Below, one piece after another: positions 12,462 to 38,718 of a DNA stretch of 64,000 nucleotides. Origin of the DNA: Escherichia coli (GTDB taxonomy: Bacteria; Pseudomonadota; Gammaproteobacteria; Enterobacterales; Enterobacteriaceae); NCBI RefSeq assembly GCF_965641715.1, contig NZ_OZ282453.1; one strand, 5' to 3'. The notes beneath the pieces are model-generated. The model saw nothing but the letters and a program-made list of their open reading frames with translations. It was not told the DNA's origin and made no database searches. The translations under genes and the position numbers were made by a program. How positions within the stretch are numbered: position 1 is the stretch's first letter; each line of letters begins with the position of its first letter.

Positions 12462-12925
12462 TGAGCAAAATCCATGAGTTAAAAATTGCACCTGAGTATT
12501 TTAACTCTGTGATATCTCAGGAAAAACGTGCTGAATTTCGTCTCAATGACCGCGATTATTCTAGCGGTGATATTCTCGGGTTGCATGAATGGGAACCGGT
12601 AAACAGATATACCGGGAAACGTGTATCAGTGAGGGTGACAAACGTTACGGATTTATCTGAATGGGCGGAAAATTATGTGATGCTGAGTTTTCAGTTAATG
12701 ATGCCAGATGTCCAGTGCGGTATGTCCCTAATGAACTGGAAAGAGTTAAGCGAGAAGGGGCTTGTTTTCAGAGTTAATCACGAAATTCTACACCCGTTAG
12801 GGCTGGCTATTAGATATGAAACACTTAACAGCGTTTCTGGTAGGGCTTACATCGCTGATGATGGTGTCTGGCAATATTCCGACAAGTTGGTCGCAGATGC
12901 TAAAAAAAATGGGTGGTTAAAATGA
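12461..12925 (+). CDS. DUF3850-like (ASCH/PUA-like) protein, 154 aa
   Basis: N-terminal HELKIAPEYF...EFRLNDRDY..GDIL motif; ATG overlaps gpA stop (TAATG). Confidence 0.5.
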   Translation: MSKIHELKIAPEYFNSVISQEKRAEFRLNDRDYSSGDILGLHEWEPVNRYTGKRVSVRVTNVTDLSEWAENYVMLSFQLMMPDVQCGMSLMNWKELSEKGLVFRVNHEILHPLGLAIRYETLNSVSGRAYIADDGVWQYSDKLVADAKKNGWLK

Positions 12926-13443: not shown

Positions 13444-13462
13444 GGCGAGGCGGGGTAAGCGT
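13444..13462. other. cos-like 19-mer ggcgaggcggggtaagcgt (first 12 nt match the P2 cohesive-end sequence as recalled)
   Basis: Partial match to remembered P2 cos GGCGAGGCGGGGAAAGCAC; location between A region and Q is as expected. Confidence 0.3.
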
Positions 13463-13533
13463 TGCGCGCGCCTGTCAAAGATATTAAGATTGTCTCAAAA
13501 TCGATTGATTTTATTGAACTAATGGAGCTAGGA

Positions 13534-15090
13534 ATGATTAAGGGTATAGGTCTTCAAAACTTCAGGAGCTTTGTCAACAAAACGTTTATTGATTTAAAAC
13601 CAATTACAGTATTTGTTGGTAAGAACAGCAGTGGTAAAAGTTCCCTATTGCGCACATTTCCTTTACTTCGTCAATCTGTAGAAGAAAATACTACTGGCCC
13701 AATACTATGGTATGGGAGATATGTGGATTTTGGCGATTTTACAGATGTACTTTCCCGAAACTCTGAAAAAAAAGAAATTACGTTTAGTTTTTCACTCTCA
13801 ATTCCGCCAGAGGTTTCACAAAGATATACATATTATCGTTCTACTGATTTAGCAAAGCAACCAACAGATATTGAAGCAGAGTTAACTGTTTACTCTAAAG
13901 ATAAAAAAACAAAAACGAAAACGATTAAGCTTATATTGGCTGATTTAACAATATTTATTTCAATGGATGAGAGTAGTAATGTTAAATTACTCATTGAATC
14001 AGATGATAAAACAATAGAGCGTGATGGGATAATAGCTAAAAATCTTGGGCAGTTCATACCAAATCTAATTTTGAAGGGTAAGGAAGACAGTCCTCCTCCA
14101 AGCACATCATTCTATTTGAGACATTCTAGGCATGACAGGGCGTTAGAATTGTCATTTATTGATTCAGCGGCGAAATATATAAAGAAATATTTCCATACTA
14201 AATCTGATATAAATCAAGTGACAGAGGCATTCAAAAGAATTGGCTTTATACCCAAAGCGTACGCTAGTAAATTAGTTGCTTTTCTATTTAAGGAACAAAA
14301 AGTTTTTAGTAGAAACTTTGAATTTCAACATGATGAAATAATGAATGAGTTATATCCATTTATAATTGGATGGAATATTAATAATCTTATAGATATAATA
14401 AATACATCCTTGTCAGATTCATTCAGAAATGTAAAGTACATAGCTCCACTGCGTGCTACATCAGAAAGATTTTATCGTTTTCAAGATTTACAGGTTAATG
14501 AGATAGATCATACTGGTTCCAATCTTGCAATGCTTTTGAATTCATTAAGACCGGCTGATAAATCAAAATTTGAAGATTGGACAAAGTTAAATTTTGATTT
14601 CATTATCAAGGTTGAACAAAGTGGCTCTCACTTTGCAATTTTAATAAACACCGGTGAAAATAGTGAGAACTATAATGTTAGTGATATGGGGTTTGGTTAT
14701 TCTCAGGTTTTGCCGATAGTTACAGCCATTTGGCTTGAGACAGAACGTCGTGCTACCACGGTTAGAAAACCTATAACATTTATCATTGAGCAGCCAGAAT
14801 TGCATTTACATCCGTCATATCAGCATAATTTAGCAAGTATTTTTGCAAAAGTAGTAACTAAAGCAAAAGAAAATAATGTAGATTTGAAGATAATTTTTGA
14901 GACACATAGCCAGACCATGATTGAAGCACTTGGTGAATATATTGAGGAAAATGAAAGTCTTTCACAGGATGATATTTCAATACTGGTATTTGAAAAAGAT
15001 GATAAGCAGCAGACTATAGTTAAGAAATCTTATTTTGACGAGAATGGTTTCCTAAAAAATTGGCCGGTTGGCTTTTTCTCGGGTAAGTAG
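13534..15090 (+). CDS. OLD/AAA_21-like ABC ATPase (518 aa), first gene of cargo operon
   Basis: Start MIKGIGLQNFRSF with GGAG RBS; Walker A GKNSSGKSS (13618..13644); Walker B-like FIIEQPELHLHP (14779..14814); FETHS H-loop; AT-rich. Confidence 0.8.
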   Translation: MIKGIGLQNFRSFVNKTFIDLKPITVFVGKNSSGKSSLLRTFPLLRQSVEENTTGPILWYGRYVDFGDFTDVLSRNSEKKEITFSFSLSIPPEVSQRYTYYRSTDLAKQPTDIEAELTVYSKDKKTKTKTIKLILADLTIFISMDESSNVKLLIESDDKTIERDGIIAKNLGQFIPNLILKGKEDSPPPSTSFYLRHSRHDRALELSFIDSAAKYIKKYFHTKSDINQVTEAFKRIGFIPKAYASKLVAFLFKEQKVFSRNFEFQHDEIMNELYPFIIGWNINNLIDIINTSLSDSFRNVKYIAPLRATSERFYRFQDLQVNEIDHTGSNLAMLLNSLRPADKSKFEDWTKLNFDFIIKVEQSGSHFAILINTGENSENYNVSDMGFGYSQVLPIVTAIWLETERRATTVRKPITFIIEQPELHLHPSYQHNLASIFAKVVTKAKENNVDLKIIFETHSQTMIEALGEYIEENESLSQDDISILVFEKDDKQQTIVKKSYFDENGFLKNWPVGFFSGK

Positions 15091-15092
15091 TT

Positions 15093-16205
15093 ATGTTGAT
15101 TAATATCGAAAATGCGACACCTGAGAAGGTGCTAAATAACTCATTTGCCATAGCGGTTGAAAATATACTTCGGGCATTCGCTGAACAAAAACACTTGGTT
15201 ATAGGGGCAAGGGTTTTTTTTAAAACTATTATCAATGATCAAAGCGGGCTTTATAGCCTTTCATCAAAAAGTTACGCGCAAGAGGCTTTGTCGGGTCTAA
15301 CAGAGTACTATGCTATCTTGGATCAGGTCTCATTTTATGTATCTGTCGACTTTAATATTAGTGATAAATCATTTAAATGGGTTCAGATCGGTGAATCTTT
15401 TAAATTTGTTTGTGGTCCATTGTATTTTAATGACTCGGCACAATTGCAAAAAACGAAAATAGTATGTGAAAATCCTTTGGATTCTGATTTTTTTAAGGTT
15501 ATAGCGGCTCATTATGCCGAAGGTATTAACTTATCTCGCTGCGAAATGGGTTTTATCGCTCTAAATGGCGGTGGGGGCAGTACTAAGGATATATTCGAGC
15601 GTGCAATTCAAAATAATGAGATAGTTTTTTGTATTGTGGATAATGACAAAAAACATCCTGGAGCCCCATTCGGAGGTACTTGCTCACATTTTTTGGGCTC
15701 ACAAATTACTCGCTCAGGTTTCGTGGAGATTTTAGATGTACATGAAATAGAATCTCTAGTTCCTTTATCGACAATTGAAGATGTATTAAGAAGTCAAAGT
15801 CAATTGCAACAAAAAGAAAAATCTCTCATTTTCTTTAAGCATCTTTGCTCCGTAGATGAATCAGTAAAATTTTATATTGACCATAAAAAAGGTTTTGATT
15901 TTAAAACAGCCCTTGAACTCGATCGAAAACATGGTGCATATTGGCGTCCGATATTAAAGAAGCTTGATATAAAATATGATTGTGAGTATATCGAATCAAA
16001 ACGTTGTAGCTGCAACGCTGCTTGTGTAAGTTATGATGGTTTTGGAGAGAATTTGCTCAGCAATACATTGAAATATATACAAAAGGGAAGTTTAAAAAAA
16101 TATAATCCTCACCTAACACCAGTGCTTTCTGATAAATGGTATAAGTTAGGTAAGAATTTCTTTAGTTGGAGTTGTGGTCCATATAAAAAAGCAAGGGTTG
16201 GTTAA
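15093..16205 (+). CDS. Partner protein (370 aa) with Toprim-like signature, possible nuclease effector
   Basis: ATG 2 nt after ATPase stop; YAEG (15519..15524), GGGG, IVDNDKKHP (DND at 15639..15647); C-terminal Cys cluster; AT-rich. Confidence 0.65.
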   Translation: MLINIENATPEKVLNNSFAIAVENILRAFAEQKHLVIGARVFFKTIINDQSGLYSLSSKSYAQEALSGLTEYYAILDQVSFYVSVDFNISDKSFKWVQIGESFKFVCGPLYFNDSAQLQKTKIVCENPLDSDFFKVIAAHYAEGINLSRCEMGFIALNGGGGSTKDIFERAIQNNEIVFCIVDNDKKHPGAPFGGTCSHFLGSQITRSGFVEILDVHEIESLVPLSTIEDVLRSQSQLQQKEKSLIFFKHLCSVDESVKFYIDHKKGFDFKTALELDRKHGAYWRPILKKLDIKYDCEYIESKRCSCNAACVSYDGFGENLLSNTLKYIQKGSLKKYNPHLTPVLSDKWYKLGKNFFSWSCGPYKKARVG

Positions 16206-25038: not shown

Positions 25039-25791
25039 CTAACGTTCGAATATTATTATCACCCCAAGAGTGAGATGTATATGATCTTCTATTTGTTCAT
25101 ATTCTTCTTGGGTGTAAGAAAGTTTAGCTAATTCTTCTGTTGCTGAAAAGACATCAATGGATACTTGGACGCCTGATGGGATTTCATTTTTTATTTCATT
25201 AATGTATTTGTTGTATTTTCTTGTGATTAGTATTATTGCGCGATCTCTGTCGACGGTGGTTGAGCAATATCGATTGGATTTGCTGTTGTTATTGTGGAAT
25301 GATTCGAATGCGCAATTGAGGGCAAGTCTTAGATTTGATGATCCTGTATTTCCAGTGTGATTGAAGTATTCTATGTTTCTTCTTAAGTCTTCAAATAGTT
25401 TTGCCTTATTTGGATTGTCCCCTTTAACTTCAATAGCACATTTTGGATAATCAAACCCATTATTATTGCCTAGTATGGCAATGTCTATCCTACCTTTTCT
25501 GGTTGTGTTTGCTTTGATTCTTAGTATTTGCCTTGAAAATATTTTCCCCGGCGTTAGTCTTTTTGAAAATGGCACCGTTGAAGTTATAAAATCCCCTGTA
25601 TCATATTCAAAAATTATTTTCTCATCATCTATGTGAAAATTTTTACTATCAAGTAGGGCTTTGCCTATTGATACAGTAGCGACGTATTCGGTATTGATTT
25701 TACCACCAGAACTGAAATTCATTAAACGTGTGATTTTAGCTGCATTGGACATGCCATCCTTTACTGCTGTGATTATTTCGTAATTGTCCAT
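25039..25791 (-). CDS. AT-rich cargo protein (250 aa) with PD-(D/E)xK-like nuclease motif
   Basis: Opposite strand to flanking tail genes; motif GRIDIAIL..(17 aa)..AIEVKGDN (D103, E121, K123; 25423..25485); strongly AT-rich. Confidence 0.6.
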   Translation of the reverse strand: MDNYEIITAVKDGMSNAAKITRLMNFSSGGKINTEYVATVSIGKALLDSKNFHIDDEKIIFEYDTGDFITSTVPFSKRLTPGKIFSRQILRIKANTTRKGRIDIAILGNNNGFDYPKCAIEVKGDNPNKAKLFEDLRRNIEYFNHTGNTGSSNLRLALNCAFESFHNNNSKSNRYCSTTVDRDRAIILITRKYNKYINEIKNEIPSGVQVSIDVFSATEELAKLSYTQEEYEQIEDHIHLTLGVIIIFER

Positions 25792-30941: not shown

Positions 30942-32135
30942 ATGAGTGACTATCATCACGGCGTCGAGGTCATCGAGATTAACGATGGCGTGCGCACCAT
31001 TTCCACCGTTTCAACCGCCATTATCGGCATGGTCTGTACGGCCAGCGATGCTGACGAGAAAACATTTCCCCTCAATGAGCCGGTACTCATTACGAACGTG
31101 CAGAGTGCTATCGGTAAGGCTGGCAAAAAGGGCACGCTGTCGACGTCCCTGCAGGCTATCGCTGACCAGTGCAAACCTGTCATCGTGGCCGTGCGTGTGG
31201 CCGAAGGTATTGAAGATCCGGAGAACCCCGAAGCGGCGCACAAACAGACCATTTCCAATATCATCGGCACCACCGATGAAAACGGCAAATATACCGGGCT
31301 GAAAGCCCTGCTGACGGCGAAAACCGTCACCGGCGTTAAGCCACGGATTCTCGGCGTGCCGGGGCTGGATTCGCAGGAAGTGGCGACCGCGCTCGCGTCC
31401 ACCTGTCAGAGCCTGCGCGCCTTTGGCTATATCAGCGCGTGGGGCTGTAAAACCATTTCCGATGCCATCGACTACCGCGAGAATTTCAGCCAGCGTGAGC
31501 TGATGGTCATCTTCCCTGATTTTCTGGCATGGGACACCACGGCGAACGCGACCGCGACAACCTGGGCGACGGCGCGCGCACTCGGCCTGCGTGCCAAAAT
31601 CGACCAGACGGTCGGCTGGCATAAAACCCTGTCTAACGTTGGCGTTAACGGTGTGACCGGCGTCAGTGCCTCAGTATCGTGGGATTTGCAGGAACCGGCG
31701 ACCGACGCCAACCTGCTGAATCAGGCTGGTGTCACTACGCTTATCCGCAATGATGGTTTCAAATTTTGGGGAAACCGTACCTGCTCAGATGATCCGCTTT
31801 TCCTGTTTGAAAACTACACCCGCACCGCGCAGGTGCTGGCCGACACGATGGCGGAGGCGCACGCGTGGGCGATGGATAAACCCATTACCCCGACCCTCAT
31901 TCGCGATATCGTTTCCGGTATCAATGCCAAATTCCGCGAGCTGAAAACCAACGGTTATATCGTTGACGGCTTCTGCTGGTACGACCCGGAGTCGAACGAC
32001 ACCGCGACCCTGAAAGTGGGGAAACTGTATATCGATTACGACTACACCCCCGTCCCGCCGCTGGAAAATCTGACCCTGCGCCAGCGCATCACCGATACCT
32101 ATCTGGCGAACCTGTCAGACTCGGTCAACAGCTAA
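30942..32135 (+). CDS. Tail sheath protein FI-like
   Basis: 397 aa as P2 FI. Confidence 0.9.
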   Translation: MSDYHHGVEVIEINDGVRTISTVSTAIIGMVCTASDADEKTFPLNEPVLITNVQSAIGKAGKKGTLSTSLQAIADQCKPVIVAVRVAEGIEDPENPEAAHKQTISNIIGTTDENGKYTGLKALLTAKTVTGVKPRILGVPGLDSQEVATALASTCQSLRAFGYISAWGCKTISDAIDYRENFSQRELMVIFPDFLAWDTTANATATTWATARALGLRAKIDQTVGWHKTLSNVGVNGVTGVSASVSWDLQEPATDANLLNQAGVTTLIRNDGFKFWGNRTCSDDPLFLFENYTRTAQVLADTMAEAHAWAMDKPITPTLIRDIVSGINAKFRELKTNGYIVDGFCWYDPESNDTATLKVGKLYIDYDYTPVPPLENLTLRQRITDTYLANLSDSVNS

Positions 32136-32147
32136 GGAGCTCTGAGC

Positions 32148-32666
32148 ATGGCGTTACCCCGCAAACTGAAATACCTGAACATGTTCAACGATGGCCTCAG
32201 CTATATGGGCGTTGTTGAATCCGTCACCCTGCCAAAACTGACCCGCAAGCTGGAGAAATATCGCGGCGGCGGAATGCCGGGGGCGGTGTCGGTTGACCTC
32301 GGCCTCGATGATGATGCGCTGTCGCTTGAGTGGACGCTCGGTGGTCTGCCTGACATTGAATTGTGGGTGCAGTACGCCTCGCCGGGTGCTGACAGTGTGC
32401 CGCTGCGCTTTACCAGCTCTTATCAGCGTGACGACACCGGCGCGATTTCTGCCGTCGAGGTAGTGATGCGTGGCCGTCATAAAGAATACGACGGCGGTGA
32501 AAACAAGCAGGGCGAAAGCGGCACGACCAAAATGGCGACCGAGTGCGCCTATTACCAGCTCACGATTGATGGCAAAGAAGTCATCGAAATTGACGTGATC
32601 AACATGGTGCTGAAAGTCGACGGTGTCGACCGTATGGCAGAGCATCGCAAGGCGATTGGCCTGTAA
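32148..32666 (+). CDS. Tail tube protein FII-like
   Basis: 172 aa as P2 FII. Confidence 0.9.
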   Translation: MALPRKLKYLNMFNDGLSYMGVVESVTLPKLTRKLEKYRGGGMPGAVSVDLGLDDDALSLEWTLGGLPDIELWVQYASPGADSVPLRFTSSYQRDDTGAISAVEVVMRGRHKEYDGGENKQGESGTTKMATECAYYQLTIDGKEVIEIDVINMVLKVDGVDRMAEHRKAIGL

Positions 32667-32720
32667 TCCCTCAACCGGTCAGCGGGGCTGGCCGGTCACT
32701 TACCCTGATGAGAAATTCGC

Positions 32721-33035
32721 ATGAAAAATATCAATGAAACTGCTGTTGCTGGCACTGAAAACGTCAATCCGAATGTCGTTATTTTTGACACGCCGCTGAT
32801 GCGTGGTGAGCAGAAAATTGAACAGGTCACCTTAACCAAACCAAACGCGGGAACCCTGCGCGGGGTGTCGCTGGCCTCGCTGGCAAGTTCCGACGTTGAC
32901 GCGCTGATTAAGGTGCTGCCGCGCATGACGTATCCGGCACTGACCGAGCACGAGCTCGCGCGTCTGGATGCGTCAGACCTGATTTCGCTGGCCGGTAAGG
33001 TGGTCGGTTTTTTGTCACCGGCTTCGGGTCGCTGA
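32721..33035 (+). CDS. Tail assembly chaperone E-like
   Basis: 104 aa, position before tape measure. Confidence 0.75.
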   Translation: MKNINETAVAGTENVNPNVVIFDTPLMRGEQKIEQVTLTKPNAGTLRGVSLASLASSDVDALIKVLPRMTYPALTEHELARLDASDLISLAGKVVGFLSPASGR

Positions 33036-33190
33036 CCTTCCCGGAAAAACTGTCGGTCGATGACCTGATGGCGGATATCGCGGTGATCTTCCACTGGCCG
33101 CCATCAGAGCTAAATTCCCTGAGCGTGACCGAGCTCCTGACATGGCGCGATAAGGCGCTGCAACGAAGCGGAAGCCATCATGAGCAATAA
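32721..33190 (+). CDS. E+E' product by programmed -1 frameshift at slippery T-TTT-TTG (33008..33014)
   Basis: Slippery heptamer near end of E; -1 frame stays open to the TAA at 33188..33190, overlapping the T start. Confidence 0.55.
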
Positions 33191-35621
33191 CGTCAGAATC
33201 GAGGTGCTGCTGAACGCAGTCGACCGGGCAAGCCGCCCGCTTAAAGCGATTCAGAACGCCAGCAAATCCCTGTCCGGTGATATCCGCAATTCACAAAAAA
33301 GCCTGCGCGAACTTAATGCGCAGGCGTCCCGTATTGACGGATTCCGCAAAGCCAGCGCACAGCTTGCCGTGACCGGTCACTCGCTTGAGAAAGCGAAACA
33401 GGAAGCGCAAGCCCTTGTCACGCAATTTAAAAACACCGAGCGCCCGACACGTGCGCAGGCGCAGGTGCTTGAATCGGCAAAGCGTGCCGCCGACGGGCTG
33501 CAGACGAAATACAACAGCCTAACTGAGTCTGTGAAACGCCAGCAACGCGAGCTCGGTGCTGTCGGGATTAATACCCGTAATCTGGCAAATGATGAGCGGG
33601 GGCTCAAATCGCGCATCAGTGAGACGACTGCGCAGCTCAATCGGCAGCGTGAGGCACTGGCGAAAGTCAGCGCACAGCAGGCAAAGTTAAGCCGGGTGAA
33701 AGCGCGGTATCAGGCCGGTAAATCGCTTGCCGGTAGCATGGCGGCGGCTGGCGCGGCCGGTGTCGGTATTGCGACAACAGGAACCATGGCCGGGGTCAAG
33801 CTGCTGACGCCGGGTTATGAATTTGCACAGAAAAACTCAAAGCTGCAGGCAGTGCTCGGTGTCGACAAACAGTCGCCTGAAATGCAGGCGCTGCGTAAAC
33901 AAGCGCGCCAGCTCGGTGACAATACCGCTGCCTCTGCCGATGATGCGGCGGGTGCGCAGATTATCATCGCGAAAAGCGGCGGTGATGCGGCGGCCATTCA
34001 GGCGGCGACGCCGGTCACACTGAATATGGCGCTGTCCAACAAGCGCACGATGGAAGAGAACGCCGCGCTGCTGACGGGCATGAAATCCGCTTTCCAGCTC
34101 TCTAACGATAAAGTCGCGCATATTGGCGATGTTCTCTCGATGACGATGAACAAAACCGCCGCTGACTTTGACGGGATGAGCGATGCGCTGACCTATACCG
34201 CGCCGGTGGCGAAAAATGCCGGGGTGAGTATCGAAGAAACCGCCGCGATGGTGGGGGCGCTGCACGATTCTAAAATCACCGGCTCGATGGCGGGTACAGG
34301 GAGCCGTGCCGTTCTGAGTCGCCTGCAGGCGCCGACCGGTAAAGCCTACGACGCCATCAAAGAGCTCGGCATTAAAACGAGCGACAGCAAAGGCAATACG
34401 CGCCCGATATTTTCCATCCTGAAGGAAATGCAGCGCAGTTTTGAGAAAAACAATCTCGGAACGGGTCAGAAAGCCGAATACATGAAAACCATTTTCGGTG
34501 AAGAAGCCAGCTCAGCGGCCGCTGTGCTGATGGCCGCCGCATCAAACGGCAAGCTCGACCAGCTCACCGCCGCGTTTAAAGCCTCGGACGGCAAGACTGA
34601 GGAGCTGGTTAAGGTTATGCAGGATAACCTCGGCGGCGACTTTAAAGAGTTTCAGTCAGCCTATGAGGCGGTTGGCACTGACCTGTTTGATCAGCAGGAG
34701 GGCTCACTGCGTAAGCTGACGCAGACGGCCACGCAATATGTGCTCAGGCTCGACGGCTGGATCCAGAAAAATAAAGGGCTGGCGACCACCATCGGCGTGG
34801 TGGTCGGGGGTGCGCTGGCGCTGATTGGTGTAATGGGCGGGATTGGCCTTGTCGCATGGCCGGTGGTAATGGGGATTAATGCCATCATTGCGGCGGCTGG
34901 CGTGCTCGGTGTGGTTTTCAGTACGGTTGGAGGCGCGATTGTCACGGCCATTGGCGCAATCAGCCTGCCGGTGCTGGCGGTTGCCGGTGCCGTGGTGGCC
35001 GGTGCGTTGCTGATCCGTAAATACTGGGAGCCGCTCGGTGCATTTTTCTCGGGCGTGGTGGAGGGACTGAAAGCCGCCTTTGCACCGGTGGGGGACATGT
35101 TTACCCCGCTCGCGCCGGTGTTTGACGCCATCGCTGAAAAGCTGGGTGTCGTCTGCCAGTGGTTTAAAGACCTGCTTGCGCCGGTGAAAGCCACGCAGGA
35201 CACGCTCTCCAGTTGCAAAAATGTCGGCGTTACTTTTGGTCAGGCGCTGGCTGATGCGCTGATGATGCCGCTCAAGATGTTTAACAGCCTGAGCGGCAAG
35301 GTCGGCTGGCTGCTGGAGAAACTCGGCGTTATCAAAAAAGAATCCAGCGACCTCGACCAGACCGCAGCGAAAGCGAATAAGGCGTCCCCGAATGGCGGGT
35401 ATATCCCTGCGACCGCAGGTTATGGCGGGTATCAGGCGTATCAGCCGGTCACAGCGCCCGCAGGCCTGTCTTATATCGACCAGAGCAAAAGCGAATACAA
35501 CATCAACCTGCAGGGCGGAGTCGCACCGGGCAGTGACCTTGACCGCCAGCTCCGTGACGCGGTCGACAAACTTGACCGCGAGAAACGTGCGCGTCAGCGA
35601 TCCAGTATGAGACTCGACTGA
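33180..35621 (+). CDS. Tail tape measure protein T-like
   Basis: 813 aa, coiled-coil N-terminus, glycine/alanine-rich TM-like core. Confidence 0.85.
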   Translation: MSNNVRIEVLLNAVDRASRPLKAIQNASKSLSGDIRNSQKSLRELNAQASRIDGFRKASAQLAVTGHSLEKAKQEAQALVTQFKNTERPTRAQAQVLESAKRAADGLQTKYNSLTESVKRQQRELGAVGINTRNLANDERGLKSRISETTAQLNRQREALAKVSAQQAKLSRVKARYQAGKSLAGSMAAAGAAGVGIATTGTMAGVKLLTPGYEFAQKNSKLQAVLGVDKQSPEMQALRKQARQLGDNTAASADDAAGAQIIIAKSGGDAAAIQAATPVTLNMALSNKRTMEENAALLTGMKSAFQLSNDKVAHIGDVLSMTMNKTAADFDGMSDALTYTAPVAKNAGVSIEETAAMVGALHDSKITGSMAGTGSRAVLSRLQAPTGKAYDAIKELGIKTSDSKGNTRPIFSILKEMQRSFEKNNLGTGQKAEYMKTIFGEEASSAAAVLMAAASNGKLDQLTAAFKASDGKTEELVKVMQDNLGGDFKEFQSAYEAVGTDLFDQQEGSLRKLTQTATQYVLRLDGWIQKNKGLATTIGVVVGGALALIGVMGGIGLVAWPVVMGINAIIAAAGVLGVVFSTVGGAIVTAIGAISLPVLAVAGAVVAGALLIRKYWEPLGAFFSGVVEGLKAAFAPVGDMFTPLAPVFDAIAEKLGVVCQWFKDLLAPVKATQDTLSSCKNVGVTFGQALADALMMPLKMFNSLSGKVGWLLEKLGVIKKESSDLDQTAAKANKASPNGGYIPATAGYGGYQAYQPVTAPAGLSYIDQSKSEYNINLQGGVAPGSDLDRQLRDAVDKLDREKRARQRSSMRLD

Positions 35622-35634
35622 GGGAGGGATAAAA

Positions 35635-36099
35635 ATGTTAATGGGGCTGGGCTTTTTCGTGTTTGAACGGCGCACCCTGCCGCATCAGTCAATGCAGTAT
35701 TCGAAGGACTACCGCTGGGTGTCAAATGACCGTATCGGAAAACCCCCGGCTTATCAGTATCTCGGGGAGGGGGAAACCTCGCGTACCCTGTCGGGCACGC
35801 TTTACCCTGAAATCACCGGCGGGCGTCTGTCACTGATGGCCATCGAACTGATGGCCGATGAGGGGCGCGCATGGCCGCTGATTGACGGAACCGGCATGAT
35901 CCACGGGATGTATGTCATCGATAAAGTGACTCACAACCACACCGAGTTATTCAGCGACGGCGCGGCTAAAAAAATCGAGTTTAGCCTGTCGCTTAAGCGG
36001 GTGGATGAATCCCTCGCGGCCATCTACGGCGACCTGAAAACGCAGGCTGATAATCTGGTCACGTCTGCCGGTAACTGGCTCGGGGGGCTGGCGGGATGA
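35635..36099 (+). CDS. Tail protein U-like
   Basis: 154 aa, position. Confidence 0.8.
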   Translation: MLMGLGFFVFERRTLPHQSMQYSKDYRWVSNDRIGKPPAYQYLGEGETSRTLSGTLYPEITGGRLSLMAIELMADEGRAWPLIDGTGMIHGMYVIDKVTHNHTELFSDGAAKKIEFSLSLKRVDESLAAIYGDLKTQADNLVTSAGNWLGGLAG

Positions 36100-37259
36100 T
36101 AACGGGAATGACTATTCAGGCCGGGGCGCGCATTGCTCCTGATTTTATGCTCACGCTCGGTGGCGCAGATATCACACAGAATTTCAGCGACCGGCTTATC
36201 GGGCTGACCATGACCGACAATCGCGGATTCGAGGCTGACCAGCTTGATATCGAGCTCGATGATACCGATGGACTGGTCGAGCTGCCGCCGCGCGGGGCAT
36301 CGCTGACCCTGTGGCTGGGCTGGCAGGGCTCGGCGCTGATTAACAAAGGGAGTTTTACGGTTGACGAAATCGAGCACCGGGGCGCGCCTGACAGGCTGAC
36401 TATCCGGGGACGCAGTGCGGATTTTCGCGGGACGCTGAACTCGCGCCGCGAGCAGTCATGGCACGACACCACGCTCGGGGTGATTGTCGAGACTATCGCG
36501 CAGCGTAACAAACTGACGGCCAGCGTGGCTGATACCCTGAAAGCTGTTGCTGTGCCGCATATTGACCAGTCTCAGGAATCCGACGCGGCGTTTTTGTCCC
36601 GACTGGCGGATCGCAACGGGGCAACGGTTTCGGTCAAGGCCGGGAAATTGTTATTCCTGAAAGCCGGTAGCGCGATGACGGCCAGTGGTAAGGCCATCCC
36701 GCAAATGACCGTCGAACGCGGCGACGGCGACCGGCATCAGTTTGCCATAGCCGACCGCGAGGCATACTCCGGCGTAACCGCTAAATGGCTGCACACCAGA
36801 GACCCGAAACCGCAAAAGCAAAAGGTGAAGCTCAAGCGCAAACCCAAAGAGCAGCACCTGCGTGCGCTGCAGCACCCGAAGGTTGCTAAAACATCGGCAA
36901 AGGCTAAAAAGAAGAAGGTGCAGGAAGCGCGGGAAGGTGAGTATATGGCCGGTGAGTCCGACAATGTTCTGGAACTCACGACCATCTACGCGACAAAGGC
37001 GCAGGCCATGCGCGCAGCTCAGGCAAAGTGGGACAGGATACAGCGTGGGGTGGCGGAGTTTTCGATCACGCTCGCCACTGGCCGCGCTGATTTATTTCCT
37101 GAAACGCCGGTGGCAGTGAAAGGCTTTAAGCGCGTTATAGACGAGCAGGCGTGGATAATCAGTCGTGTGGTACACAGCCTCAACGGGAGCGGCTTCACGA
37201 CGGGCTTAGAGCTTGAGGTTAAGGTTTCTGATGTGGAGTATGAAAGCGAGGAAGTTTAA
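36096..37259 (+). CDS. Tail/late control protein D-like
   Basis: 387 aa as P2 D. Confidence 0.85.
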   Translation: MITGMTIQAGARIAPDFMLTLGGADITQNFSDRLIGLTMTDNRGFEADQLDIELDDTDGLVELPPRGASLTLWLGWQGSALINKGSFTVDEIEHRGAPDRLTIRGRSADFRGTLNSRREQSWHDTTLGVIVETIAQRNKLTASVADTLKAVAVPHIDQSQESDAAFLSRLADRNGATVSVKAGKLLFLKAGSAMTASGKAIPQMTVERGDGDRHQFAIADREAYSGVTAKWLHTRDPKPQKQKVKLKRKPKEQHLRALQHPKVAKTSAKAKKKKVQEAREGEYMAGESDNVLELTTIYATKAQAMRAAQAKWDRIQRGVAEFSITLATGRADLFPETPVAVKGFKRVIDEQAWIISRVVHSLNGSGFTTGLELEVKVSDVEYESEEV

Positions 37260-37339
37260 CGGTGTGTGTTGTTTATGTGTTTGTTTTATAAATAAAAATT
37301 AGTAAAATTAACACATTGAATACGCCGGAGACCCTCATC

Positions 37340-37561
37340 ATGTTTCATTGTCCGAAATGCCATCATGCCGCCCACGCCCGCACGAGTCGCTATTTTACTG
37401 ATACCACAAAAGAGCGGTATCACCAGTGCACAAACATTAACTGCAGCTGCACGTTTGTGACCACTGAAACAGTCGAGCGTTTTATCGTGTCGCCGGGGGA
37501 AGTAGTACCCGCGCCGCCGCATCCGACATCATCAGGTCAGCAACAAATTCACTGGATGTGA
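37340..37561 (+). CDS. ogr: Ogr zinc-finger late transcription activator
   Basis: MFHCPKCHHAAHARTSRYFTDTTKERYHQC matches remembered P2 Ogr; Cys4 zinc finger. Confidence 0.85.
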   Translation: MFHCPKCHHAAHARTSRYFTDTTKERYHQCTNINCSCTFVTTETVERFIVSPGEVVPAPPHPTSSGQQQIHWM

Positions 37562-37866: not shown

Positions 37867-38718
37867 TTGAACAATATCCCCATATCTACTCAATGGACTT
37901 TAGACGCTACGGGTGAAGTTGGACGCTCATCAGTAAATTCTGTTTATATGATTATATGTCCTGCGACAGGCTCGAAAGGATCTGGTTTTTTAATAGATAA
38001 TGGGTTAATAGTAACGAACGAGCATGTTATCACTGGATGCTCTACAAATCAGATTTTCGCAATTTCAGCTTATGGACAGAAGATTCCAATTTCTCAAAAA
38101 TGGATAGATTCTGATCGCGATTTAGCTGTGCTGAGACCTGCCATTACCCAGACTGGTGGGCTAAGTATTGTTAAGGATAATGATCTTAAAGTTGGTGAAT
38201 CAGTAACAACTTGGGGATACCCATTAGGATACAACGGTCCTGCACCGTTACTATCCGTTGGTTATCTAGCAGGATTTAACTCATACCAAACCGCCAAGGG
38301 ACAAAAAAAACATCTAGTGGTAAATGGGGCATTTAACTCAGGAAATTCTGGTGGAGCTCTTTTAAAAGCTTCAGATAATAAAGTAATAGGTATTGTAGTG
38401 AGTAAGCATGCTCCTATCAGTCAATACCATCAATCAGCTATTGAAGCTTTGTCTGAAAATATGAGTGGCGTCACCTATACCGCTACTAATGACGCTGGAG
38501 AAACTAAAAGTTTTGTAGAATCTCAAATTGTAGCAGAATTATTGATTCATATGAGAAGTCTAACTCAAGTTATGATTGGAGAAGCAATTGCAGCAGAGGA
38601 ATTACTTTCGATGCTTAGCGAAATTGACTTGAGTCCACCACAATCTATGTCAAGAAATGCCTTATGTCATTGCGGGAGTGGAAAACGCTTCAAAGAATGT
38701 CATGGAAAGATATCCTAG
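37867..38718 (+). CDS. AT-rich cargo: trypsin-like (S1/chymotrypsin fold) serine protease with C-terminal SEC-C zinc-binding motif
   Basis: TTG start with strong aaaggag RBS 7 nt upstream; catalytic-triad-like TNEHV / DLAVL / GNSGGAL; C-terminal CHCGSGKRFKECHG (38662..38703). Confidence 0.65.
   Translation: MNNIPISTQWTLDATGEVGRSSVNSVYMIICPATGSKGSGFLIDNGLIVTNEHVITGCSTNQIFAISAYGQKIPISQKWIDSDRDLAVLRPAITQTGGLSIVKDNDLKVGESVTTWGYPLGYNGPAPLLSVGYLAGFNSYQTAKGQKKHLVVNGAFNSGNSGGALLKASDNKVIGIVVSKHAPISQYHQSAIEALSENMSGVTYTATNDAGETKSFVESQIVAELLIHMRSLTQVMIGEAIAAEELLSMLSEIDLSPPQSMSRNALCHCGSGKRFKECHGKIS

What the first reader, a model, noticed from the sequence alone, without database searches (positions are those of the whole stretch)
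33008..33190. Programmed -1 frameshift site for the E/E' tail chaperone pair
The slippery heptamer T-TTT-TTG lies 20 nt before the E stop codon, and the -1 frame remains open to a TAA that overlaps the tape-measure start. This matches the conserved frameshifted chaperone arrangement of P2-like tails.
Basis: partly seen in the sequence, partly recalled or inferred. Interest (0 to 1): 0.3.

Follow-up and report, generated by a model that had tools for sequence, protein, structure and literature searches.

The report
P2-type tail chaperone frameshift site
This is the well-known programmed -1 ribosomal frameshift that lets a P2-like prophage of E. coli make two tail-assembly chaperones (E and the longer E+E') from one start codon; it is real but ordinary, and standard genome annotation usually misses it.

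Summary
T TTT TTG lies at 33008-33014 in the zero frame of gene E (32721-33035). The -1 frame is open from 32999 to a TAA at 33188-33190, which overlaps the tape-measure start (ATG 33180). The heptamer ends 18 nt before the E stop, not 20.

The window is an E. coli chromosome carrying a P2-like prophage with the gene order FI-FII-E-T-U-D-ogr. The simulated fusion protein (156 aa) has Pfam Phage_TAC_7 in frame 0 and Phage_P2_GpE in frame -1. Phage P2, whose record annotates this -1 frameshift, has the identical heptamer and 29 identical bases around it.

In 181 related loci E' is in the -1 frame in all but two damaged contigs. The site is T TTT TTG/A in 176, T TTT TTT in one, G GGA AAG in one and A AAT TTT in one; one contig was truncated and one was not separately scored.

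Novelty: already known.

Two side observations may be new but are unproven:
- A strong Shine-Dalgarno-like element (AAGGTGGTC, 32997-33005) sits just 5' of the heptamer and recurs in distant relatives.
- A perfect 10-bp hairpin (33065-33107) encloses the internal ATG that NCBI's PGAP pipeline annotates as the E' start.

The parts
32148..32666 (+). Tail tube gene FII (context: upstream neighbour of the chaperone pair)
   Evidence: Pfam Phage_tube, E 2.8e-58
32721..33035 (+). Gene E, zero frame, 104 aa, tail assembly chaperone; stop TGA 33033-33035
   Evidence: ORF; Pfam Phage_TAC_7, E 1.4e-10; phrog_103 tail protein, E 1e-41; 72% identity to P2 gpE
32996..32998 (+). TAA, the last stop in the -1 frame upstream of the shift site; it sets the 5' edge of the stretch where both frames are open
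   Evidence: Frame scan
32997..33005 (+). Shine-Dalgarno-like AAGGTGGTC, candidate 5' stimulator (inferred, not shown)
   Evidence: Eight contiguous pairs with the 16S rRNA 3' end, -12.8 kcal/mol; rank 2 of 6,308 10-mers in the tail operon, equal to the best real ribosome-binding site; third positions of AAG and GTG are 1.00 and 0.98 identical in 83 distinct relatives against a mean of 0.72
33008..33014 (+). Slippery heptamer T TTT TTG
   Evidence: identical to P2; conserved in relatives
33014..33190 (+). E' coding segment in the -1 frame (58 codons plus TAA 33188-33190); base 33014 is read twice
   Evidence: Translation; Pfam Phage_P2_GpE, E 9.1e-19 on the fusion; phrog_1756 covers E' residues 1-57, including the 18 residues before the internal Met; variation at 33037-33052 falls on third positions of the -1 frame
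33068..33070 (+). Internal ATG in the -1 frame, used by PGAP as the start of a separate 40-aa 'GpE family' CDS; it lies inside the 5' arm of the hairpin
   Evidence: several relatives have no start codon here (Ala, Glu, Ile, Tyr)
33065..33107 (+). Hairpin: perfect 10-bp stem CUGAUGGCGG/CCGCCAUCAG plus an inner stem; role unknown
   Evidence: -23.5 kcal/mol, z -3.46, 0 of 200 shuffles fold as well; arms invariant in 74 enteric-clade sequences with no compensatory change
33180..35621 (+). Tape-measure gene T; its ATG lies 11 nt inside the end of E'
   Evidence: Pfam PhageMin_Tail, E 1.3e-43; TIGR01760, E 1.1e-98

Best explanation

Most ribosomes read E to TGA 33033 and release the 104-aa gpE. 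A minority slip. With tRNA-Phe on UUU (33009-33011) in the P site and tRNA-Leu on UUG (33012-33014) in the A site, they move back one base onto UUU UUU (33008-33013). They then read GUC from 33014 and continue for 58 codons to TAA 33188-33190, giving the 156-aa E+E' protein.

Both proteins share the N-terminal chaperone part. By analogy with lambda G/GT, that part coats the tape-measure protein T and the E' extension recruits the tube protein FII. The efficiency of the slip fixes the ratio of the two products.

Shown here: the anatomy, the homology and the conservation. Inferred: that slippage happens in this prophage, its efficiency, and the binding partners.
For: 1. Anatomy: the heptamer is in the correct register and is the only one in the 34-nt stretch where both frames are open.
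2. The simulated fusion carries Phage_TAC_7 (residues 23-98) and Phage_P2_GpE (117-152, E 9.1e-19). The flanking genes are FI, FII, T, U, D and ogr.
3. The P2 record annotates E+E' as a joined CDS, '-1 frameshift; essential tail protein'. P2 has the identical heptamer and the identical context ctggccggtaaggtggtcggttttttgtc. Records for phages 186, EtG, Midge, Menos and FLC5 annotate the same shift. Lynch 2010 (PMC3091744) states that the P2 shift occurs at TTTTTTG.
4. Conservation: 87 of 87 close loci (33 distinct overlap sequences) have TTTTTTG or TTTTTTA. In 15 distant Peduoviridae, E' is always in the -1 frame; 12 have TTTTTTG and 3 have other slippery heptamers (TTTTTTT, GGGAAAG, AAATTTT). 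In a betaproteobacterial clade, 77 of 79 evaluable loci have TTTTTTG or TTTTTTA with E' in the -1 frame. The other 2 also carry the heptamer but are damaged contigs.
5. Synonymous sites of GGT, TTT and TTG are 1.00, 1.00 and 0.93 identical, against a mean of 0.72.
6. Between the E stop and the internal ATG, variation falls on third positions of the -1 frame, and the PHROG profile covers that stretch. It is therefore translated in the -1 frame.
7. Replacement of the T run by non-homopolymeric G GGA AAG and A AAT TTT in relatives points to tandem tRNA slippage rather than polymerase slippage.
Against: - There are no expression data for this prophage.
- No significant RNA structure lies immediately 3' of the heptamer (33015-33064: z -0.58). 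This agrees with the literature on P2 but leaves the stimulator unidentified.
- An in-frame ATG at 33068 could in principle give a free 40-aa E'. Its weak Shine-Dalgarno score (-5.3) is not decisive, because the starts of E and T score even lower.
- A run of six T preceded by a weak hairpin leaves a small opening for transcriptional slippage.
- The primary experimental paper (Christie et al. 2002) could not be read here. Its roughly 10% efficiency is quoted from my memory of the abstract.
Confidence: 0.88

Rival explanations
1. E' is made on its own as a 40-aa protein from the internal ATG at 33068, by independent initiation or by re-initiation after termination at the E stop 33 nt upstream. 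This is how PGAP annotates it. No frameshift is needed.
For: ATG 33068 is in the E' frame. RefSeq genomes annotate a separate 'GpE family phage tail protein' CDS from that ATG. The Pfam GpE model starts exactly at that Met. A weak Shine-Dalgarno score is not disqualifying, since the starts of E and T score lower.
Against: The 18 codons between the heptamer and the ATG show -1-frame coding conservation and are covered by phrog_1756. Relatives have Ala, Glu, Ile or Tyr instead of Met at this position yet keep the heptamer. The ATG sits inside a -23.5 kcal/mol stem. The P2 record describes E+E' as a frameshift fusion that shares the amino terminus of gpE.
Confidence: 0.04
2. The fusion arises from transcriptional slippage. 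RNA polymerase adds one extra U in the run of six U, possibly helped by the weak hairpin just upstream. Normal translation of that minority mRNA then gives E+E' with Phe instead of Leu at residue 98.
For: A terminator-like weak hairpin (8 pairs, 4 of them G-U) at 32987-33008 directly precedes the T run. The T run is invariant in most relatives.
Against: The Atkins 2016 review describes transcriptional slippage in bacteria on runs of 9 A or T, and this run has six. The hairpin count does not exceed shuffles (2 found against a mean of 1.6), and its 5' arm is not conserved in the majority group (alignment). Relatives with G GGA AAG or A AAT TTT cannot use homopolymer slippage.
Confidence: 0.06
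3. The site is an inherited relic in a silent or decaying prophage and makes no product in this host.
For: No expression data exist. Prophages often decay.
Against: All tail-operon ORFs are full length and match their families. Integrase, repressor-like HTH, gpA and the head genes are present as intact ORFs. The same prophage region at 96.6% identity occurs in other E. coli genomes with every gene called.
Confidence: 0.02

Closest known systems
Bacteriophage P2 genes E and E+E' (NC_001895, P2p26/P2p25)
   Same: Same heptamer T TTT TTG in the same register. Twenty-nine identical bases span it. Same gene order FII-E/E'-T-U-D-ogr. Same two Pfam domains. The E' stop overlaps the T start. The last six residues before the shift are the same (KVVGFL).
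   Different: E is 104 aa against 91, and the fusion is 156 aa against 142. E is 72% identical. The overlap with T is 11 nt against 8 nt. Over this segment the window is closer to Enterobacter phage ENT4 (82.6%) than to phages 186 or PSP3 (about 73%).
Phage 186 gene H (orf51/orf52) and other Eganvirus/Peduovirus chaperone pairs
   Same: Same heptamer and frames. The 186 record notes 'probably produced by a translational frameshift'. EtG and Midge annotate joined CDSs.
   Different: About 72% DNA identity. The residues between the shift site and the stop differ.
Phage lambda G/GT tail assembly chaperones (Levin 1993; Xu, Hendrix, Duda 2004, 2013, 2014, as summarised in PMC5009743)
   Same: Works the same way: two overlapping ORFs between the major tail (tube) gene and the tape-measure gene, a low-level -1 shift near the end of the first ORF, and a fixed ratio of short to long product.
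   Different: There is no detectable sequence relationship. Pfam places E in Phage_TAC_7, not in lambda's family. Lambda uses G GGA AAG. P2-type tails are contractile.
E. coli dnaX -1 frameshift signal
   Same: An X XXX XXG heptamer preceded by a Shine-Dalgarno-like element. In dnaX this is AGGGAG, 10 nt before A AAA AAG. Here it is AAGGTGGTC, 2 nt before T TTT TTG. In the best-scoring pairing register this puts an aligned spacing of about 8 nt to the P-site codon, against about 10 nt in dnaX.
   Different: dnaX also needs a strong 3' stem-loop about 6 nt downstream and shifts about 50% of ribosomes. Here no significant structure follows directly. The role of the Shine-Dalgarno-like element is untested.

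Membership tests
P2-type E/E+E' frameshifted tail assembly chaperone (Peduoviridae) | First ORF is a gpE homologue (Phage_TAC_7) | tested here: met
   Pfam E 1.4e-10, above the curated cut-off; 72% identity to P2 gpE; phrog_103, E 1e-41
P2-type E/E+E' frameshifted tail assembly chaperone (Peduoviridae) | The second segment, in the -1 frame, is an E' homologue (Phage_P2_GpE) | tested here: met
   Pfam E 9.1e-19 on the simulated fusion; phrog_1756, E 1.8e-25
P2-type E/E+E' frameshifted tail assembly chaperone (Peduoviridae) | Located between the tail tube gene FII and the tape-measure gene T in an FETUD-type operon | tested here: met
   Pfam assignments for FI, FII, T, U, D and ogr
P2-type E/E+E' frameshifted tail assembly chaperone (Peduoviridae) | Slippery heptamer X XXY YYZ in the zero-frame register, inside the stretch where both frames are open | tested here: met
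   T TTT TTG at 33008-33014; both frames open over 32999-33032; identical to P2
P2-type E/E+E' frameshifted tail assembly chaperone (Peduoviridae) | E' has no translation start of its own and is expressed only as an extension of E | tested here: inconclusive
   An ATG exists at 33068. The 18 codons before it are conserved as -1-frame coding sequence, and relatives lack a start codon there. Initiation itself cannot be tested in silico.
P2-type E/E+E' frameshifted tail assembly chaperone (Peduoviridae) | The fusion protein is actually produced at a low percentage and is essential for tail assembly | not testable with these tools
   Needs protein or genetic experiments. For P2 the record says 'essential tail protein'.
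Lambda G/GT family (sequence family) | Sequence homology to lambda gpG/gpGT | tested here: not met
   Pfam returns only Phage_TAC_7 and Phage_P2_GpE for the fusion. The resemblance is in function and gene position, not in sequence.
dnaX-type stimulated -1 frameshift | Shine-Dalgarno-like element 5' of the shift site that pairs with 16S rRNA | tested here: inconclusive
   A strong element is present (-12.8 kcal/mol, rank 2 of 6,308) and recurs in most lineages. The synonymous-codon control is only weakly significant (0.028 for the window, typically 0.02-0.15). Function is untested.
dnaX-type stimulated -1 frameshift | Stable stem-loop or pseudoknot 5-9 nt 3' of the heptamer | tested here: not met
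   33015-33064 folds no better than shuffles (z -0.58). RNAalifold finds no conserved helix there. Lynch 2010 reports none for P2 or the Burkholderia phages.

The most novel reading that the evidence does not exclude
P2-type E/E' frameshifting is stimulated from the 5' side by pairing of an internal Shine-Dalgarno-like sequence with the 16S rRNA of the translating ribosome, as in dnaX. Here the sequence is AAGGTGGTC at 32997-33005. Related phages have GAGGTG, AGGTGATC or GGAGGT, and Burkholderia-type phages have GGRGG 12 nt upstream. This would be the missing stimulator for a site that has no 3' structure. I found no mention of it in the papers I could search, and the primary P2 paper was not readable here. 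A second element might add to it: the conserved hairpin at 33065-33107, which buries the internal ATG and could block synthesis of free E'.
Probability: 0.35. Interest if true: 0.4.

Novelty: already known. Interest (0 to 1): 0.15.

Why it matters
The biology is textbook. The frameshift sets the ratio of two chaperones needed to build a contractile tail of the right length.

The practical point is annotation. PGAP calls E' as a separate 40-aa 'GpE family' gene starting at an internal ATG. Segments matching this region occur in 1,631 of 5,426 complete E. coli genomes. The true 156-aa product is therefore probably missing from many protein sets, although I inspected only one of those records.

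If the Shine-Dalgarno-like element proves functional, it would explain how a site without a 3' structure reaches useful efficiency. It would also extend the dnaX/IS-element type of 5' stimulation to a large phage family.

Tried and rejected
1. A stimulatory stem-loop or pseudoknot directly 3' of the heptamer. The 103-nt fold looked structured (z -2.65), but the signal comes from the distal hairpin. The proximal 50 nt are at background (z -0.58) and their pairs are not conserved.

2. The distal hairpin as a universal element. It is significant in the window and its arms are invariant in the enteric clade. However, there is no compensatory change, and E' as a whole has high third-position conservation. 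Distant relatives fold differently. In the betaproteobacterial clade a different hairpin pairs in 78% of cells, against 31-46% in slid controls, with 12 compensatory cells at one pair. Many cells are broken, and RNAalifold does not recover it. The result is inconclusive.

3. A helix joining GGUGGUCGG to UUGUCACC across the heptamer. It shows only one-sided changes, is absent in distant relatives, and cannot form with a ribosome on the site.

4. An intrinsic terminator or slippage hairpin at 32987-33008. It does not exceed shuffles and is not conserved.

5. Rfam: no match at E <= 1. PDB by sequence: nothing meaningful. NCBIfam: no model for E or the fusion.

6. The primary paper (Christie et al. 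2002) and the 2016 P2 review were not retrievable.

7. The other heptamer with a long -1 continuation (A AAA AAT at 12904) is an ordinary ATGA stop/start overlap with the next gene.

8. The two loci that seemed to break the -1 rule, L113 and L138, are a 1-nt deletion in a G run and an N-containing duplication. Both keep TTTTTTG.

Full report
**1. What is in the sequence**

Gene E occupies 32721-33035 (104 aa, stop TGA 33033-33035). Its last codons read GGT TTT TTG TCA CCG GCT TCG GGT CGC TGA. TTTTTTG at 33008-33014 is therefore in the X XXY YYZ register.

The -1 frame has a stop at 32996-32998. It is then open from 32999 to TAA 33188-33190. The next gene starts at ATG 33180, so the E' stop lies 11 nt inside it.

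**2. Is it more than chance?**

In 54 long ORFs of the window there are 62 in-frame X XXY YYZ heptamers in 18,647 codons. Only two lead to a -1 product that passes the zero-frame stop. One (12904) is simply the next gene, joined by an ATGA overlap. The other adds 28 codons. A heptamer in the last ten codons followed by 58 open codons is roughly a 1-in-1000 event per gene.

The decisive evidence is homology. A fusion simulated by re-reading base 33014 (156 aa) matches Pfam Phage_TAC_7 (residues 23-98) and Phage_P2_GpE (residues 117-152, E 9.1e-19). Both scores are above the curated cut-offs.

**3. Context**

The neighbouring genes are:
- sheath FI (30942-32135)
- tube FII (32148-32666)
- tape measure T (33180-35621)
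- U (35635-36099)
- D (36096-37259)
- ogr (37316-37561)

Integrase, a repressor-like HTH protein and gpA lie to the left. The right flank is E. coli yegQ/trhP. The window is therefore an E. coli chromosome with a P2-like prophage. The E region is 96.6% identical to prophages in other E. coli genomes. It is 82.6% identical to Enterobacter phage ENT4 and about 73% identical to phages 186 and PSP3.

**4. Comparison with the characterised system**

The P2 record annotates E+E' as a joined CDS ('shares amino terminus with gpE; -1 frameshift; essential tail protein') and marks the site of the -1 translational frameshift. P2 reads ctggccggtaaggtggtcggttttttgtc, identical to the window over 29 bases that include the heptamer. 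E is 72% identical to P2 gpE.

Lynch et al. 2010 (PMC3091744) summarise the primary work of Christie et al. 2002 and Xu et al. 2004. In P2 the -1 shift occurs at TTTTTTG and gives the 91-aa E and the 142-aa E+E' from one start. No downstream RNA structure is present. I could not retrieve the primary paper. The roughly 10% efficiency I quote comes from my memory of its abstract.

The functional model comes from lambda G/GT as reviewed in PMC5009743. The shared part binds the tape measure, and the extension binds the tube protein. Its transfer to this prophage is inference.

**5. Conservation**

- Close relatives: all 87 loci (33 distinct overlap sequences) have TTTTTTG or TTTTTTA at the same place, while neighbouring wobble positions vary.
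- Distant Peduoviridae: in 15 phages of Yersinia, Burkholderia, Ralstonia, Acidovorax, Pseudomonas, Shewanella, Vibrio, Arsenophonus, Klebsiella, Salmonella, Mannheimia and E. coli, E' is always in the -1 frame. Twelve have TTTTTTG. Vibrio has T TTT TTT, Mannheimia has G GGA AAG, and E. coli phage 520873 has A AAT TTT.
- Betaproteobacterial clade: 77 of 79 evaluable loci have TTTTTTG or TTTTTTA with E' in the -1 frame. The two exceptions are a 1-nt deletion and an assembly artefact, and both keep the heptamer.

Replacement by other canonical, non-homopolymeric slippery heptamers argues for tandem tRNA slippage rather than polymerase slippage.

In 83 distinct enteric-clade sequences the third positions of GGT, TTT and TTG are 1.00, 1.00 and 0.93 identical, against a mean of 0.72.

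**6. Is E' made only by frameshifting?**

The first start codon in the -1 frame is ATG 33068. PGAP uses it to call a separate 40-aa 'GpE family' protein. Four observations argue against this being the real start:
- The 11 codons between the E stop and that ATG vary mainly at third positions of the -1 frame (33037-33052: identity 0.34-0.65), while the encoded residues are kept.
- phrog_1756 aligns to E' residues 1-57, which include the 18 residues before the Met.
- Relatives have Ala, Glu, Ile or Tyr at that position.
- The ATG is buried in a stable stem.

The weak Shine-Dalgarno score before the ATG is not an argument, because the starts of E and T score lower.

**7. Stimulators**

Directly 3' of the heptamer nothing stands out (z -0.58). 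RNAalifold finds no conserved helix there. This agrees with the literature.

On the 5' side, AAGGTGGTC (32997-33005) can form eight contiguous pairs with the 16S rRNA 3' end (-12.8 kcal/mol). It ranks second among 6,308 10-mers of the tail operon, equal to the strongest genuine ribosome-binding site, that of U.

A comparable element lies within 24 nt upstream of the heptamer in 38 of 46 distinct contexts. Local background fractions are mostly 0.004-0.05. It is built from different codons in different lineages: AAG GTG, GAG GTG, CAG GTG ATC, GTG GAG GTC.

In the betaproteobacterial clade a Gly-Gly pair sits 12 nt upstream. Its first codon is GGG (30 contexts) or GGA (14), and never GGC or GGT. 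GGC makes up 57% of Gly codons in those loci. The result is GGRGG, at a spacing like the 10 nt between AGGGAG and A AAA AAG in dnaX.

Five-prime Shine-Dalgarno stimulators are established for dnaX and for about 56% of IS elements (PMC5009743).

Caveats:
- The synonymous-resampling control is weak (0.028 for the window, typically 0.02-0.15).
- The sequences are related, so they are not independent observations.
- The spacing in the enteric clade is shorter than in dnaX. There are 2 nt from the end of the element to the heptamer, and about 8 nt of aligned spacing to the P-site codon.
- Five lineages lack the element. Three of them have altered heptamers.

I rate this a plausible but unproven stimulator.

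**8. The distal hairpin**

CUGAUGGCGG (33065-33074) and CCGCCAUCAG (33098-33107) form a perfect 10-bp stem with an inner helix (-23.5 kcal/mol, z -3.46, 0 of 200 shuffles). The arms are invariant in 74 enteric-clade sequences. Loop third positions vary, and the few arm changes keep pairing (U-A to U-G in 13 sequences).

There is no compensatory double change. The rest of E' is also highly conserved at third positions. Distant relatives have other local hairpins or none, and the test in the betaproteobacterial clade is inconclusive.

At 50 nt from the heptamer the hairpin is too far away to act as a classical stimulator. A possible role is to hide the internal AUG from ribosomes released at the E stop. 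That is speculation.

**9. Rival explanations**

- Independent initiation at ATG 33068: 0.04.
- Transcriptional slippage on the run of six T: 0.06. The weak upstream hairpin found by the terminator scan does not exceed shuffles and is not conserved.
- A silent relic: 0.02.

**10. Verdict**

This is a further copy of the already known P2 E/E+E' programmed -1 frameshift, so interest is low. The practical value is for annotation. The possible novelty lies in the 5' Shine-Dalgarno-like element and the ATG-sequestering hairpin, both of which need experiments.

Noticed in passing
window 32997-33005; also L088-L181 about 12 nt 5' of their heptamers: A strong anti-Shine-Dalgarno-complementary sequence lies just upstream of the slippery heptamer. 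It recurs in most Peduoviridae lineages but is built from different codons. In Burkholderia-type phages the first Gly codon of a Gly-Gly pair is always GGG or GGA, although GGC dominates locally.
   Followed up: partly
window 33065-33107: A perfect 10-bp inverted repeat forms a -23.5 kcal/mol hairpin inside E' (z -3.46). Its 5' arm contains the internal ATG 33068. The arms are invariant in 74 relatives, but there is no covariation and distant clades fold differently.
   Followed up: partly
L006 6469-6591 (equivalent to window 33068-33190): In the one RefSeq E. coli genome inspected (NZ_AP021944), PGAP annotates E' as a separate 40-aa 'GpE family phage tail protein' from the internal ATG, not as a frameshift fusion. 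Segments matching this region occur in 1,631 of 5,426 complete E. coli genomes.
   Followed up: partly
L097 664-670; L098 619-625; L099 613-619: Three distant relatives have replaced T TTT TTG with other slippery heptamers: G GGA AAG (Mannheimia phage, the same as lambda), A AAT TTT (E. coli phage 520873) and T TTT TTT (Vibrio phage). All three also lack the upstream Shine-Dalgarno-like element.
   Followed up: partly
window 25039-25791 (- strand): A 250-aa ORF between the tail genes S and V matches the PADLOC model for Tin, the P2 exclusion protein against T-even phages (E 5.6e-93). It has no Pfam match.
   Followed up: no
window 13462-16205: A two-gene cassette lies between the replication gene A and the portal gene Q. 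It consists of a 542-aa AAA_15-type ATPase (PADLOC NsnB, PDC-M55A and AriA-like, E down to 5e-55) and a 370-aa partner with no Pfam hit and a weak PDC-M55B match. This looks like an anti-phage defence cargo.
   Followed up: no
window 37867-38718: A trypsin-like peptidase with a C-terminal SEC-C motif lies between ogr and the host gene yegQ/trhP. The same gene sits next to the related prophage in other E. coli genomes. It resembles the protease domain of PADLOC RT-Protease_XI (E 7e-21).
   Followed up: no
window 12902-12925: A run of eight A lies 12 nt before the stop of a DUF3850/ASCH-domain gene, and 83 codons are open in the -1 frame. This is an ordinary ATGA stop/start overlap with the next 80-aa gene, with GGGTGG as its ribosome-binding site. 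It is not a frameshift signal.
   Followed up: yes
window 32675-32696: A GC-rich 9-bp hairpin (CCGGTCAGC gggg GCTGGCCGG) sits in the FII-E intergenic gap. This is the position where the phage 186 record annotates the partial terminator tI. It has no clear T tail here.
   Followed up: no
window 33158-33190: The tape-measure start ATG 33180 has a very weak Shine-Dalgarno sequence (-3.5 kcal/mol) and lies 11 nt inside the end of E'. It is 145 nt beyond the E stop, where most ribosomes leave the mRNA. How T is translated efficiently is not obvious.
   Followed up: no
L113 about 880-893; L138 825-990: Two viral contigs seem to break the -1 rule. One has a 1-nt deletion in the G run upstream of the heptamer. 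The other has an N-containing tandem duplication of the end of E. These are likely sequencing or assembly errors.
   Followed up: yes
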